DNA from: Eledone cirrhosa
Taxonomy: Eukaryota
Reading direction: 5' to 3'
Assembly (NCBI GenBank): GCA_964016885.1
Contig: OZ024744.1
Coordinates: 29,636,001-29,700,000 of the forward strand
Length of the DNA: 64,000 nt
The position numbers and the translations under genes are program-made. Below, one piece after another: positions 5,716 through 64,000 of the stretch; the stretch's first letter is position 1, and the number at the start of each line of letters is the position of its first letter. Below the pieces are notes generated by a model. The model had not been told where the DNA came from. It searched no databases and saw only the letters and a list, made by a program, of their open reading frames with translations.

Positions 5716-6170
5716 TGTATATATAGTGTATTTTGCAATACACTGTATGCTTAATTAAAAGCATTTCGAAGACCTTATGCTATTGTTTTAGAGTAGTAAA
5801 CAGTCTCACTTACTTTAAATTTTCAGCAAACAAGGGGAGATAAAGCTGACAGAGCTCTGTTTCGTACTGATTGGCACTTATCAAAACTAAGTACTCCACC
5901 TGTTTGCTGAAAATCATGAATGTTTGATTCTTATAGAATTCTAGTAATAATCAGGAACTGATTATACTGAGCGGTTGCCGGTCAAGCAGAAATTGAAAAT
6001 AAGTACCACACAGTATGAAACAGAGCTCTGTCAGCTTTATCTCCCCCTGTTTGCTAACAATTTAAAGTAAGTGAGACTGTCACTACTCTAAAACAATAGC
6101 GTAAGGTCTTCAAAATGCTTTTAATTAAGCATACAGTGTATTGCAAAATACACTATATATACATTCATAT
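5711..6170. repeat. Tail-out palindrome with HHR-like motif on each arm
   Basis: ~160-bp inverted arms (5711-5869 / 6012-6170) flanked by TA repeats. Each arm reads CTGATTA...GAAACAGAGCTCTGTC outward from the centre ATAATCAG-GAA-CTGATTAT. Confidence 0.8.
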
Positions 6171-8994: not shown

Positions 8995-9053
8995 TATTTT
9001 ATTATATTTCAAGGGTACCGACAATTTTTGGTACACTCTCATCAGATAAAATA
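8995..9053 (-). ncRNA. Minimal type I hammerhead motif
   Basis: TATTTTAT-CTGATGA-GAGTGTACC..GGTACCCTT-GAAA-TA-TA-ATAAAATA gives an 8-bp stem I and an intact core. Relatives at 40440-40504 (+) and 48681-48745 (-). Confidence 0.75.
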
Positions 9054-48635: not shown

Positions 48636-48893
48636 ATACGATATATTAACAAATGAAAACTATATTTATAAAACCATATTTATTTCATTATACATATTTC
48701 AAGGTCACCAAGATAAATTATGGTGTGCTTTCATCAGATAAAATATAATATAGACCAGTTTTATAAATAAATATTGACATACCCTTAAAGAATGCAACCA
48801 TTACTATTGGAAGCTCCCGGTGTCCTTGAAATATGTATAATGAAATAAATATGGTTTTATAAATATAGTTTCCATTTGTTAATATATCGTATT
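48636..48893. repeat. Tail-out palindrome; left arm has an intact HHR core (48681-48745, -)
   Basis: Arms 48636-48704 / 48824-48893; same family as 8995 and 40440. Confidence 0.75.
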
Positions 48894-49149: not shown

Positions 49150-49157
<8 letters not shown>

Positions 49158-50365
49158 GTTAAAAATGTGCATCCACATATGTATACTGAAATACTAGTAT
49201 GCATATGAATACACACACGTATACATATGTAGATGTACCAAGTTTTTCACTGGTCACTTTACCGTGAGTGTCCAGCTATTCTGTATGTAAACACACAGAC
49301 AAACCGGTTTTTAGAGTCATACTGGTTTTTGAGGAAACACCTTTCCTCTATTCTCCAGAAAGCCAGACAAGGAGTATTGAACTAGTTTCGTTGTTGTTAC
49401 AACTCATCAGCAATATTTACCTATCTACCGGCCTTTCTGGAGAATCGTAAAAGCACATATCGTTATATGCTTTTTCTATGAAAATTAGTAGTGGGAAGAC
49501 TAATTTGCATAGAGTGTGAGTACGTACCGGTTCAACGGAGTCGATAAAAACAAATAACGAAACGAAATTAAATTTCGTTTCGTTTGTAACTCACTTTTGT
49601 ATGACTGACGCTTAAACAATTAAGTTAAAAATGTACATCCACATATGTATACTGAAATACTAGTATGCATAGGAATACAGACACGTATACATATGTAGAT
49701 GTACCAAGTTTTTCACTGGTCACTTTACCGTGAGTGTCCAGCTATTCTGTATGTAAACACACAGACAAACCGGTTTTTAGAGTCATACTGGTTTTTGAGG
49801 AAGCACCTTTCCTCTATTCTCCAGAAAGCCAGACAAGGAATATTGAACTAGTTTCGTTGTTGTTACAACTCATCAGCAATATTTACCTATCTACCGGCCT
49901 TTCTGGAGAATCGTAAAAGCACATATCGTTATATGCTTTTTCTATGAAAATTAGTAGTGGGAAGACTAATTTGCATAGAGTGTGAGTACGTACCGGTTCA
50001 ACGGAGACGATAAAAACAAATAACGAAACGAAATTAAATTTCGTTTCGTTTGTAACTCACTTTTGTATGACTGACGCTTAAACAATTAAGTTAAAAATGT
50101 ACATCCACATATGTATACTGAAATACTAGTATGCATATGAATACACACACGTATACATATGTAGATGTACCAAGTTTTTCACTGGTCACTTTACCGTGAG
50201 TGTCCAGCTATTCTGTATGTAAACACACAGACATTCATATGCATACTAGTATTTCAGTATACATATGTGGATGTACATTTTTAACTTAATTGTTTAAGCG
50301 TCAGTCATACAAAAGTGAGTTACAAACGAAACGAAATTTAATTTCGTTTCGTTATTTGTTTTTAT
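49150..50365 (-). mobile_element. Retrozyme-like tandem array 1 (466-bp unit, ~2.3 units + inverted piece)
   Basis: Units start at ~49153, 49619 and 50085; HHRs at 49373-49417 and 49839-49883; inversion at ~50233; flanked by (TA)n. Confidence 0.88.
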
Positions 50366-51459: not shown

Positions 51460-52748
51460 GGTAAATATGATTAGTTGTCTGTCAGAAATAGAAAAATCAT
51501 TTACAAAACTACGCTGGAGCATCAAAAACAAAAGCAACAATATACGCACACACATATACAACACACATCCCAACAACAACAGACACACAGACACAAACAA
51601 CAATAACAACAACACACACATCAACAACAACAACAATAACAACATACCCAGAAACAACAACAACAGACACGCAGACACAAACAACAATAACAACCCACAA
51701 AACAACGATAACACACACGGAGACAACAACAACACACATCAACAACAGCACACATCAACAACAACAACACACACGCATTCAATGCCTCTCACCACCACCA
51801 CAATCTTAACAAACACACAGACACAGAAAACAAGTAATGACAGTAGCACAGAAATCACAGAAATAAGGGAAAGTAATAGGATTAAAAGGAGAAGGGAGAC
51901 TAAGGACAAAGAGAATAACCAAGACGAACACACAGACACACAAAATAGGGTAGATAACAACATTGAGCCAGTGGAAAGAGACAGGAGTAATTATGAGAGA
52001 CATAGAAACAACCATGAGGCTGTTGGTGGAAATAGAAATAGAAACAACACAACTAGCAATAACAATAGCACTAGTACACATAAAGCAGCAGCCTGGACCT
52101 CTCCGTTTTATAATCCCTCCGATAAATCATTCGACCTGCGACGAGTCCACGCCACGACTTTACCATTTAACAAACGCACGCAGTTGCCGTCGCAGGTCGA
52201 TGAACAAACAGAAGCACAATTTAGTATAGCTAGATCCGAACTTAGAAATATTATAGAACAGTATAGCAAGAAGCATAATAGAATAGAGGCCCAGCAACTG
52301 GGAGAAAAATCTGCAAATGGCTTGCGTAAGCTCATGCAGCGCTCACTTAATGGAGAGATAGCATGCTTTCCAACAGACAAGTCTGGCAGAATGTCGGTTG
52401 ACAGCCTGCCAAACTACATCCAGGCAATGCAACCCCACATCACTAACACAAGAGAGGTAACACCACAGGAGCATGAGGATAGAGAAAAAGCCCTCAATGC
52501 CCATATGGTGATGTGGACGAATATAATGCAGCCCAACAAAAGGACTGCCAACAACTTCCAGGCCTGGAACAATGACGTGCCGGAGTTGTATGGGCTTCGA
52601 AAAGACCATAAAACGGGCTGTGACCCTGTCGCGGGACCACCAACACGGCCAGTCTGTGGAGCTAACATTGCTAGTAACTACAGACTGTCCTACTTCCTCT
52701 CCCTGATCACATGCCCCATCATTGAGATGTCCCCAGATGTATGTGACA

Positions 52749-52948
52749 NNNNNNNNNNNNNNNNNNNNNNNNNNNNNNNNNNNNNNNNNNNNNNNNNNNN
52801 NNNNNNNNNNNNNNNNNNNNNNNNNNNNNNNNNNNNNNNNNNNNNNNNNNNNNNNNNNNNNNNNNNNNNNNNNNNNNNNNNNNNNNNNNNNNNNNNNNNN
52901 NNNNNNNNNNNNNNNNNNNNNNNNNNNNNNNNNNNNNNNNNNNNNNNN
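52749..52948. other. Assembly gap (200 N)
   Basis: Run of N. Confidence 1.
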
Positions 52949-54808
52949 TGTCCCTCTATCCATCTATTGACGTGGATTTTGCTGTGGAGAAATGCGTAGA
53001 AATGATCAGCGAGAGCAAGGTTGAGTTCCGTGGGATTGATACCAGTGAGCTGGGACTTCTACTTAAGCTTACCCATAGTAATAGATTACCTAGACACATA
53101 TGACCTTAGCAACCTGTGCCCTACAAGACCAGCAAGAGGCAGACCACCTACCCATTACCTCAATGGCAAGAAAACCCACACAGATAGATGGAACGGGTGG
53201 ACCAGAGCCATACGGACACCCGAAAACCACGATGAACTGAAGAAAATGATTGCACATGCTGTAGGGGCCAGCATAAAATTAACCCTTAAGGAATATATGT
53301 TCAAATTTAATGGAAAAACATATGCCCAAGAGGAAGGAGCAGCCATTGGTGTTAGCATTGCAGGCGACATAGCTAACTTATTCATGGTATGGTGGGACAG
53401 TAGACTAAAAACTTAACTTAATAGAGAACATTTAGAAGACAGCTTAACCCTGAAAATGTACTCCCGCTACGTAGATGATATAAACATCGTAGTTAAGACA
53501 CCCCACTAGAGAACAGTCAGGAACTAGAGAAAAACACAATGGAAAGCATCCAGCAAATAGAAAACTCCATCCACCAGAGCATTAGAGTTTACTATAGACT
53601 ACCCAAGTAGACACCCAACCATCGATTACCTGTACTAGACACAGAGCTCTGGTTAGATACCATTAACAACCAAAAACAAATCCTCCATTCCCATTATGCC
53701 AAAACCATGACTTCCAACATCTGATCCACCCGAAACTCGGCCATTCGGACCATACCAAAATCAACATACTGATTGCGGATTTGGTACGGGTGATGAGAAA
53801 TGTGTCCCGCATGTGCAACCCCGAAGAACTAAAGAGACACATACAACACTTCATCCACCGTATGCAGTTCTCTGGCTACAATCAGAGAGATAGAATCAGA
53901 GTGTATAGAGGAGCCAGAACCAAATGGGAAAAAATGGTAAGTAATGACATAAATGGGACCTGCCCCTTGTATAGGAGCAAATTTTGGAATAGAGTAGAAA
54001 GAACTAGGAACAAGGCCAATAGAATAAACTCATGGTATGATAGCAATAAATACCAGAGTGTAATGTTCATCGATACAACCCCTAGAGGCGAACTAGCCTA
54101 CAAATTTAGAAGGGCCCTAAATAAACATAAACTCAATATTAAGATAGTAGAAAGACCAGGTACCTCCGTAAAAACACTTATTAGCAAGACATACCCGTTT
54201 CAAAGACCCTCATGTAGAGATAAGAAATGTATAACCTGTAAAATAAGCCCCCATATTAACTGTAAAACTAGAAATGTAGTGTATAGCATAAGATGTACTG
54301 AAGGACAATGTAGAAACAAAAATATAGTGTACATAGGTGAGACAGCTCGTAGTATAGGGGAACGGATAAATGAACACTGGCGAGACCTTCAAGATAATAA
54401 AGAATCATCTGTACTCTACCAACATGCTAAGATAGAACACAAGGGTAAATTAGAGAACATAGAAATAAAAATAGAATCTACACACAGAAAAGATGCAATG
54501 TTTAGACAAATTACAGAGGCAATAAACATAAAAGAATTACAACCAAAATTAAATAGAAAATATGAGTGGAACAGCAACATCACAACTTACAATTAAGGAC
54601 AAAATGAAAACACACACACACATAGAACAAACAACCAACCAATAACATGTAAATAAATAAATAAATAAACAAATAGATAAATGAACACAAACACACACAG
54701 ACACCCGGATGTGGCGCATGCGCAAACTGAGCACACAACACACACACAGAAACAAAATGGCGTAGGACAGAAGAAAGGAAAGGCACAGAAACAAAGAAAG
54801 GAATCCCC

Positions 54809-56692: not shown

Positions 56693-58683
<1,991 letters not shown>

Positions 58684-58694
58684 CATATATATAT

Positions 58695-58998
58695 TGGAAA
58701 GTGAGGTTTTTTTACAAAATGAAAAATAACCGAGGTGTCCTACACGAGTGAAAGTATAAAGAAAAAGAGATGAAATCGAAAATGCAACTGAAGTCTTATT
58801 TTTTTTAAAAATATATATATGTATTTGGTTCCTTTAACGGTTTCGCAGTTCTTCTGCTTTTCAAAAGGTGAGTTGAGATGGAGGGTCTGTGGTTTTTCTC
58901 TGTGGTTTTTCTCAGTGAGAAAAACCACACACCCTCCATCTCAACTCACCTTTTGAAAAGCAGAAGAACTGCGAAACCGGTAAAGGAACCAAATAAAT
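58695..58998. repeat. Tail-out palindrome with two U3:A8 hammerheads (58831-58868 -, 58949-58986 +)
   Basis: Inverted arms around 58900-58915; CCTT-TTGAAAA-GCAG aagaa CTGC-GAAA-CCGG-TA-AAGG. Confidence 0.8.
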
Positions 58999-59002
58999 AT
59001 AC

Positions 59003-59041
<39 letters not shown>

Positions 59042-63526: not shown

Positions 63527-63925
<399 letters not shown>

Positions 63926-64000
63926 TATATATATATATATACATACATACACGCACGCGCGCGCACATACGTAGTCGCTCATGTACATATATAGAAAGTA

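What the first reader, a model, noticed from the sequence alone, without database searches (positions are those of the whole stretch)
58949..58986. Minimal hammerhead family with a compensatory U3:A8 core (UUGAAAA)
Seen in four copies (17142, 58831, 58949, 63729): CCTT-TTGAAAA-GCAGaagaaCTGC-GAAA-CCGG-TA-AAGG. It has stems I and II, G10.1-C11.1, a palindromic ACCGGT stem III and a GUA site. Established: positions 3 and 8 form a tertiary pair, and C3U/G8A double changes can retain activity. A palindromic stem III is typical of HHRs that cleave as dimers. Inference: the double substitution indicates selection for catalysis.
Basis: partly seen in the sequence, partly recalled or inferred. Interest (0 to 1): 0.8.

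Follow-up and report, generated by a model that had tools for sequence, protein, structure and literature searches.

The report
Hammerhead variant in a Penelope retrotransposon
The motif is a hammerhead-ribozyme-shaped RNA with an already described U3-A8 core, carried in the end repeat of a young jumping gene with over 10,000 copies; it likely cuts only weakly, and nearly all inserted copies run through it uncut.

Summary
The motif is real: perfect at 58949 and 63729, one change each at 17142 and 58831. The four copies are three insertions of one element. It lies in the pseudo-LTR of a young Penelope-like retrotransposon (RT, CX4CxxC linker, GIY-YIG; Neptune/Nematis type), 10,814 near-exact matches genome-wide. 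Most short copies examined are head-to-head palindromes in (TA)n, with the Penelope 'tail' on one arm. U3-A8 is published: natural hammerheads (Perreault 2011), and the same UUGAAAA core in a schistosome Penelope-like element (Cervera 2014). The copies do not show selection. Positions 3 and 8 change singly (61 and 40 copies), never together, as neutral decay predicts, and older subfamilies amplified with weaker stems. Three leads: U3 can pair with A17 (a predicted trap like C3-G17); 5' ends are about threefold commoner around the predicted cut, but the peak is broad and confounded; the parent has ORF1 overlapping RT-EN at a -1 slippery site. Cleavage is untested. A new member of a known kind.

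The parts
58949..58986 (+). Type I hammerhead motif, U3:A8 core. Helix I 58949-52/58983-86; core 58953-59; helix II 58960-72; palindromic ACCGGT 58976-81; predicted cut after A17 at 58982.
58831..58868 (-). Second copy on the opposite arm of the same insertion; helix III palindrome broken (ACCGTT)
58688..58900 (-). Long arm of a head-to-head pseudo-LTR insertion; carries the ~65-nt tail and ends in (TA)n
   Evidence: (97% to parent L062)
58915..59006 (+). Short arm of the same insertion; runs into (TA)n about 10-20 nt after the motif
63729..63766 (-). Perfect copy of the motif
63653..63927 (.). Second inverted insertion. The - arm 63653-63802 has the motif and no tail; the + arm 63803-63927 starts downstream of the motif and has the tail. 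(TA)n on both sides.
17142..17179 (+). Copy of the older CTCTAC subfamily; helix I has 3 contiguous pairs
16587..17251 (+). 3' fragment (3' UTR plus pseudo-LTR) of the same element, 88% to parent L062

Best explanation
The motif is a type I hammerhead-shaped RNA with a U3:A8 core that sits in the pseudo-LTR of a young, >10,000-copy Penelope-like retrotransposon, and it likely acts as a slow ribozyme that would need a second copy or the element's protein to cut. SHOWN: the parent unit (~4.7 kb) runs motif, tail, ORF1 (400 aa), RT-GIY-YIG frame (775 aa), 3' UTR, motif, tail. The window copies are 5'-truncated pseudo-LTR pieces in (TA)n, and inserted copies span the intact site. INFERRED from PLE work: a tandem transcript carries two motifs whose ACCGGU palindromes pair into a 6-bp helix III; the element's RT starts at two sites about 75 and 140 nt downstream of the cut, both on TATA words; cutting the 3' motif would remove those starts, so templates must be uncut there. 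PREDICTED: U3 pairing with A17 and the short helices keep the rate low. The 58831/58949 pair would be inert, because a read-through transcript folds into one long hairpin. Odds: motif in a PLE pseudo-LTR about 0.95; measurable cleavage in a forced dimer about 0.55.
For: Parent structure: 484-bp direct repeats at 98% flanking an RT-EN region. Both motifs are present in L062 and in 4 of 20 further parents (L121, L126, L128, L129). Pfam RVT_1 and GIY-YIG. Copy count 5454+5360, control 0. 27 of 29 palindromic loci have one tailed and one untailed arm, matching the inverted copy and tail of PLEs (PMC8557442) and the two RT starts (PMC11167929). The same ends next to (TA)n appear in two other organisms' contigs. 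Descriptor shuffles 0 of 30,000. The dimer fold gives helices I, II and an intermolecular III at -21.1 kcal/mol. The published PLE alignment holds the same UUGAAAA core in S. mansoni beside CUGAAGA in S. japonicum. U3-A8 cores are described as natural and active in vitro (PMC3088659). A second, unrelated U3-A8 family of 197 matches is in this genome. 23 of 30 ORF1-bearing copies extend past the 5' cut site and 0 of 30 start at it.
Against: There are no cleavage data, and no RNA was examined. No hammerhead row was seen in Rfam. The motif lacks the extra nucleotide between 9 and 10.1 that most published min-HHRs have. Older subfamilies amplified with a 3-bp helix I, a 3-bp helix II and even G10.1-U11.1, and ViennaRNA does not form helix I in them. 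In the 281-nt context helix I has probability about 0.04. In one related organism's run, position 3 is C in 21,300 of 21,579 depth with no change listed at position 8; coverage dips there, so this is unresolved. [quoted passage not shown]
Confidence: 0.72

Rival explanations
1. Vestigial ribozyme: the lineage inherited a hammerhead, the U3/A8 state drifted in under AT pressure, and it no longer cuts; the element spreads without it.
For: HHR cleavage was not needed for insertion in vitro, and no RNA reads ended at the site, in the anole PLE (PMC11167929). Naiads thrive without canonical HHRs (PMC8557442). Older subfamilies have weak, uncompensated stems. Some mutations are shared by both arms of one insertion (5 rare shared against 112 unshared variants in 42 arm pairs), which fits mutant donors being mobile or arm conversion. 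C3 with possibly A8 dominates one other organism's run.
Against: All core positions, loop II and the palindrome are identical across five subfamily majorities, though with about 11 differences in 107 nt this is not significant by my hand estimate (p about 0.2). Two unrelated families in the genome both have U3 with A8. No change at position 3 or 8 is listed for six other organisms' runs, apart from a trace at position 3 in one.
Confidence: 0.3
2. Efficient ribozyme under selection: the motif cuts tandem transcripts into unit-length RNAs that are the normal templates.
For: The core is intact and U3-A8 is a permitted pair (PMC3088659). The youngest subfamily has the best-paired helices I and II. 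Estimated 5' ends are about 3-fold commoner at offsets 0 to +2 than at six control offsets (25 against 20 junctions at unequal exposure, p 2e-4).
Against: At least 10,814 copies span the site intact against about 75 estimated to start at it. 0 of 30 ORF1-bearing copies start there. The excess is not sharp: offset -4, upstream of the cut, is as high (105, CI 36-219) and +1 is at background (27). Five of six control patterns start with C, which is rare in the partner sequence, so microhomology or RT stalling at the helices can explain it.
Confidence: 0.15
3. Chance resemblance: an AT-rich repeat end that only looks like a hammerhead.
For: Short motif, no folding z-score, no hammerhead row seen in Rfam.
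Against: 0 of 30,000 shuffles give the descriptor, and the motif lies where PLE hammerheads are reported, in both pseudo-LTRs (PMC4209133).
Confidence: 0.03

Closest known systems
PLE minimal hammerheads with U3-A8, Cercyon family of Schistosoma mansoni (Cervera and de la Pena 2014, PMC4209133; about 1,300 hits)
   Same: Type I, in pseudo-LTRs, U3-A8 core; the S. mansoni(4) row has the same UUGAAAA letters; opposite-strand pairs 100-700 bp apart were also reported.
   Different: Here helix III has a 4-nt palindromic insert, there is no extra nucleotide after A9, helix II is only 4 bp, and position 17 is A (U and G in the two schistosome U3-A8 rows). No cephalopod row appears in the part of the alignment that I read.
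Shrimp, mosquito and Drosophila PLE hammerheads with a small palindromic helix III (same paper)
   Same: Short palindromic helix III, proposed to act as a dimer; the Marsupenaeus row has a 4-bp helix II, no extra nucleotide and A17.
   Different: Those rows have C3-G8.
Poseidon element PAc of the green anole (Frangieh 2024, PMC11167929)
   Same: Hammerhead in the pseudo-LTR upstream of two RT start sites that define the tail; AT-rich targets.
   Different: C3-G8 core, no linker Zn-finger, one ORF; the 30-40-bp tail cited for PLEs compares with about 65 bp here; starts there are described as non-homologous to the target, whereas both ends here fall on TATA words.
Neptune/Nematis EN+ Penelope-like elements (Craig 2021, PMC8557442)
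   Same: RT, CX2-5CxxC linker, C-terminal GIY-YIG, (TA)n insertion, inverted 5'-truncated copy, tail.
   Different: The parent here has a 400-aa ORF1 overlapping the RT-EN frame in -1. A Fundulus Neptune has two non-overlapping ORFs (PMC12602865).

Membership tests
Type I hammerhead ribozyme (PLE type) | Core YUGANRA...GAAA...UH with a Watson-Crick 3-8 pair | tested here: met
   UUGAAAA, GAAA, UA; U3-A8
Type I hammerhead ribozyme (PLE type) | Helix II closed by G10.1-C11.1 | tested here: met
   All four window copies; G-U in the oldest subfamily
Type I hammerhead ribozyme (PLE type) | Helix I and a palindromic helix III for dimer folding | tested here: met
   4 bp helix I and ACCGGU in the young subfamily; dimer fold; 3 bp and not predicted to form in older subfamilies
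Type I hammerhead ribozyme (PLE type) | Extra nucleotide between 9 and 10.1 (consensus of min-HHRs) | tested here: not met
   Absent here; also absent in two rows of the published alignment, so not obligatory
Type I hammerhead ribozyme (PLE type) | Match to an Rfam hammerhead model | tested here: not met
   No row among 150 of 284 listed or among 6 of 6 at E<=10; the C3-G8 466-bp family nearby gives sub-threshold HH9 hits
Type I hammerhead ribozyme (PLE type) | Self-cleavage after NUH | not testable with these tools
   The genomic 5'-end proxy was inconclusive
Type I hammerhead ribozyme (PLE type) | Covariation of positions 3 and 8 within the lineage | tested here: inconclusive
   0 doubles among 61+40 singles; 2 C3-G8 copies genome-wide, both derived; organism D unresolved
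EN+ Penelope-like element | RT with DKG motif and C-terminal GIY-YIG | tested here: met
EN+ Penelope-like element | Pseudo-LTRs, inverted 5'-truncated copy, tail on one end | tested here: met
EN+ Penelope-like element | Single ORF | tested here: not met
   ORF1 plus a 775-aa RT-EN frame in -1 overlap; one fusion protein would follow if the frameshift is programmed (untested)
Neptune/Nematis clades | CX2-5CxxC linker before GIY-YIG | tested here: met
   C-x4-C-x2-C read in the L067 translation; definition from PMC8557442
Neptune/Nematis clades | Placement in an RT tree with named references | not tested
   No named Neptune or Nematis sequence was retrieved
Non-LTR retrozyme | Non-coding tandem units of a few hundred bp, each with an HHR | tested here: not met
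   Dispersed or inverted copies with a coding parent

The most novel reading that the evidence does not exclude
This lineage carries a deliberately throttled hammerhead: U3 is trapped by A17, so most RNA stays uncut and keeps its downstream RT starts, while a few percent is cut in vivo and leaves the excess of 5' ends seen at the site. With over 10,000 copies, the family would give a genomic footprint of PLE hammerhead cleavage in vivo, in an element whose RT-endonuclease is made by -1 ribosomal frameshifting.
Probability: 0.15. Interest if true: 0.65.

Novelty: new member of a known kind. Interest (0 to 1): 0.3.

Why it matters
As a ribozyme variant it is ordinary: U3-A8 cores and PLE hammerheads are published. 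Its value is as test material. What hammerheads do in EN+ Penelope-like elements is still open (PMC8557442, PMC11167929), and this young, very abundant family with many open RT-EN frames allows a per-base map of 5' ends and a simple U3/A8/A17 cleavage series. The apparent -1 frameshift between ORF1 and RT-EN is a side finding that PLE specialists may care about more than the core variant.

Tried and rejected
Rfam: no hammerhead row seen for this motif; the miRNA rows at 58858-58959 come from the inverted repeat. A C3-G8 ancestor in the genome: 13 hits of a loose canonical-core pattern against 6 control hits; only L076 and L077 share helix II. L076 groups with the old U3-A8 subfamily, and L077 is a scrambled arm whose other arm is U3-A8. 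Per-category mutation rates among 165 copies (core 0.7%, flank 2.6%) were rejected as evidence of selection, because many loci were chosen by patterns or scores that require the core. An intron from the GUA donor-like site to a YCAG about 50 nt downstream: 2 deletion copies, neither at the exact junction, so no support. No RNA holder listed. Metagenome scans found nothing. Earlier findings: none. The repeat finder output was swamped by (TA)n, and a fuzzy-regex script timed out. Papers not held: Lunse 2017, Przybilski and Hammann 2007, Nelson and Uhlenbeck 2008, so I have no measured rate for U3-A8 or for U3 with A17. Supplement file 1 of PMC4209133 could not be searched and may list more motifs.

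Full report
1. Observation. The copy at 17142 has ACTT in helix I and the copy at 58831 has ACCGTT in helix III. A strict type I descriptor finds two U3-A8 and four C3-G8 motifs in the window, none in 100 window shuffles, and none in 30,000 shuffles of the element end. The motif is real and not chance. No hammerhead row for it was seen in Rfam.

2. What carries it. The window is G000:C28:29636001-29700000 of a 3.0-Gb genome. A 35-letter pattern with positions 3 and 8 free matches 10,814 times, control 0. Among 29 loci picked by similarity to the 58900-59000 junction (so biased towards palindromes), 27 are head-to-head pairs with one arm ending about 75 nt after the motif and the other about 65 nt further, mostly running into (TA)n. 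Same-strand pairs led to the parent. L062 has 484-bp direct repeats at 98% around an RT-EN region, period 4,915 bp. Of 20 further loci taken from the 100 best RT matches, 4 hold both motifs about 4.7 kb apart. The protein has RVT_1, GIY-YIG, DKG and a C-x4-C-x2-C linker, which PMC8557442 (passages read) assigns to the Neptune and Nematis clades. The nearest named relative is an Octopus bimaculoides protein at 74% over 55% of the query, which suggests a cephalopod host. 93 copies match the ORF1-start pattern exactly. The inverted copy and the one-sided tail are known PLE signatures; PMC11167929 (parts 1-2 of 4 read) ties the tail to two internal RT starts.

3. Is U3-A8 a sign of selection? Among otherwise perfect copies, position 3 differs in 61 (35 C, 15 G, 11 A; all with A8) and position 8 in 40 (17 G, 13 C, 10 T; all with U3). 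None is C3-G8; about 0.06 would be expected (letters counted by hand). That is neutral decay of dead copies and says nothing about the parent. Older subfamilies (1,851 matches) show U3 in 99 and A8 in 99 of the first 100 listed. Only 2 copies genome-wide have C3-G8 with this helix II, and both look derived. Across five subfamily majorities the core, loop II and palindrome do not change, while helices I and II are weaker in the older ones without compensation. I count about 11 differences in 107 nt between oldest and youngest, so an unchanged core is not significant. In contigs of 7 organisms' runs, six list no change at position 3 or 8, apart from 605 of 1.2 million depth at position 3 in organism A. 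Organism D has C3 in 99% of laid depth with position 8 unresolved, because depth falls there. Better support for a real 3-8 pair comes from across families: an unrelated motif at 5844-5888 has 197 matches, A8 in 98 of the first 100 and U3 in all 5 distinct loci read, while other window families are C3-G8.

4. How it likely works. Shown: layout, copy number, ends, and that inserted copies span the site. Inferred: two motifs on a tandem transcript pair their ACCGGU palindromes (dimer fold -21.1 kcal/mol with the core held open), as proposed for PLE motifs, whose in vitro activity was low (PMC4209133, parts 1-2 of 4 read). A cut at the 3' motif would remove both RT starts, so that motif must be uncut in templates. 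23 of 30 ORF1-bearing copies also run through the 5' motif and none starts at it. Predicted: with U at 3 and A at 17, helix I extends by a U3-A17 pair in the monomer and dimer minimum-energy folds (1.4 kcal/mol lower per dimer). This parallels the C3-G17 trap proposed for minimal hammerheads (PMC3884650, part 1 and passages read). The second U3-A8 family has C17, and the two schistosome U3-A8 rows have U17 and G17.

5. A genomic proxy for cutting. I estimated 5' ends at 11 offsets from whole-genome counts and the first 30 loci of each: -51: 31; -23: 14; -14: 23; -6: 14; -4: 105; -2: 84; 0: 75; +1: 27; +2: 66; +6: 15; +41: 10. Offsets 0 to +2 exceed six controls 3.0-fold (p 2e-4). The p-value leaves out -4 and -2, whose patterns use different letter filters, and it counts both arms of one insertion separately. 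The zone extends upstream of the cut and follows GG and TA words, so cleavage, RT stalling at the helices and microhomology all remain possible. At most a few percent of copies end there.

6. Comparison with what is known. Natural C3-G8 to U3-A8 covariation was reported by Perreault 2011 (passages read). About 1,300 U3-A8 motifs were reported in S. mansoni PLEs, and the supplement's alignment (file 2, part 2 of 3 read) shows the same UUGAAAA core. It works like those motifs and meets the sequence tests for membership; activity is untested. My searches (listings only, except for the papers named) showed no title or abstract on this family or on a U3 with A17 core, but Lunse 2017 and two biochemical papers on the 3-8 pair were not available.

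7. Side finding. In 19 of 20 parent loci the RT-EN frame begins in a T TTT TTA heptamer region. In 9 of the 10 that hold the ORF1 start, a 400-401-aa ORF1 ends just past it, in the -1 arrangement. The L067 translation shows no Met before the DKG motif. This is the HIV-type slippery sequence (search listing); the downstream fold is weak (-9.2 kcal/mol). Programmed frameshifting is inferred, not shown. Searches listed no Neptune frameshift paper; PMC12602865 (passages read) describes two non-overlapping ORFs.

8. Verdict. Observation confirmed; interpretation partly supported. A new member of a known kind, interest 0.3.

Noticed in passing
L129:2280-5716 (G000:C2:151607600-151615100); also L121-L140: The parent element has a 400-aa ORF1 overlapping a 775-aa RT-EN frame in -1 at a T TTT TTA heptamer (19 of 20 loci); a likely programmed frameshift.
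   Followed up: partly
window 5844-5888 (-): Second, unrelated U3-A8 hammerhead family (UUGAUAA core, long palindromic helix III, GUC site); 197 matches, some inverted pairs and some 320 bp apart in tandem.
   Followed up: partly
window 49152-50233, 56903-58101, 58099-58619: 466/467-bp tandem repeats, each unit with a C3-G8 type I hammerhead, ending in an inverted unit; retrozyme-like. The 58688 insertion lies next to it across a (TA)n run.
   Followed up: no
window 38427-38472 (+) and 32766-32811 (-): Two identical C3-G8 hammerheads in inverted orientation around the RT-endonuclease-like frames at 33454-36030.
   Followed up: no
window 8995-9053 (-), 48681-48745 (-): Further CUGAUGA hammerhead-like motifs with an 8-bp helix I.
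   Followed up: no
window 51461-54596 (+): Another Penelope-like RT/GIY-YIG remnant, with an assembly gap of N inside.
   Followed up: no
L062:6003-6075 (element ends): Both recurrent 3' ends fall on TATA words inside the element, and the 58915 arm ends at a third TA run; this suggests priming by homology to (TA)n targets.
   Followed up: partly
L072, L075, L078, L074, L080: Old, decayed motifs with C3-G8 and the same ACCGGT palindrome but other stems; possibly sister families.
   Followed up: no
window 58860-58872 (+) and 58978-58985 (+): AAG/GTGAGT, a donor-like site antisense to the motif, and CG/GTAAAG, a donor-like site at the cut; no spliced genomic copy found for the second.
   Followed up: partly
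run X6 (organism D) on L062:6180: Position 3 of the motif is C in 99% of laid depth; position 8 unresolved.
   Followed up: partly
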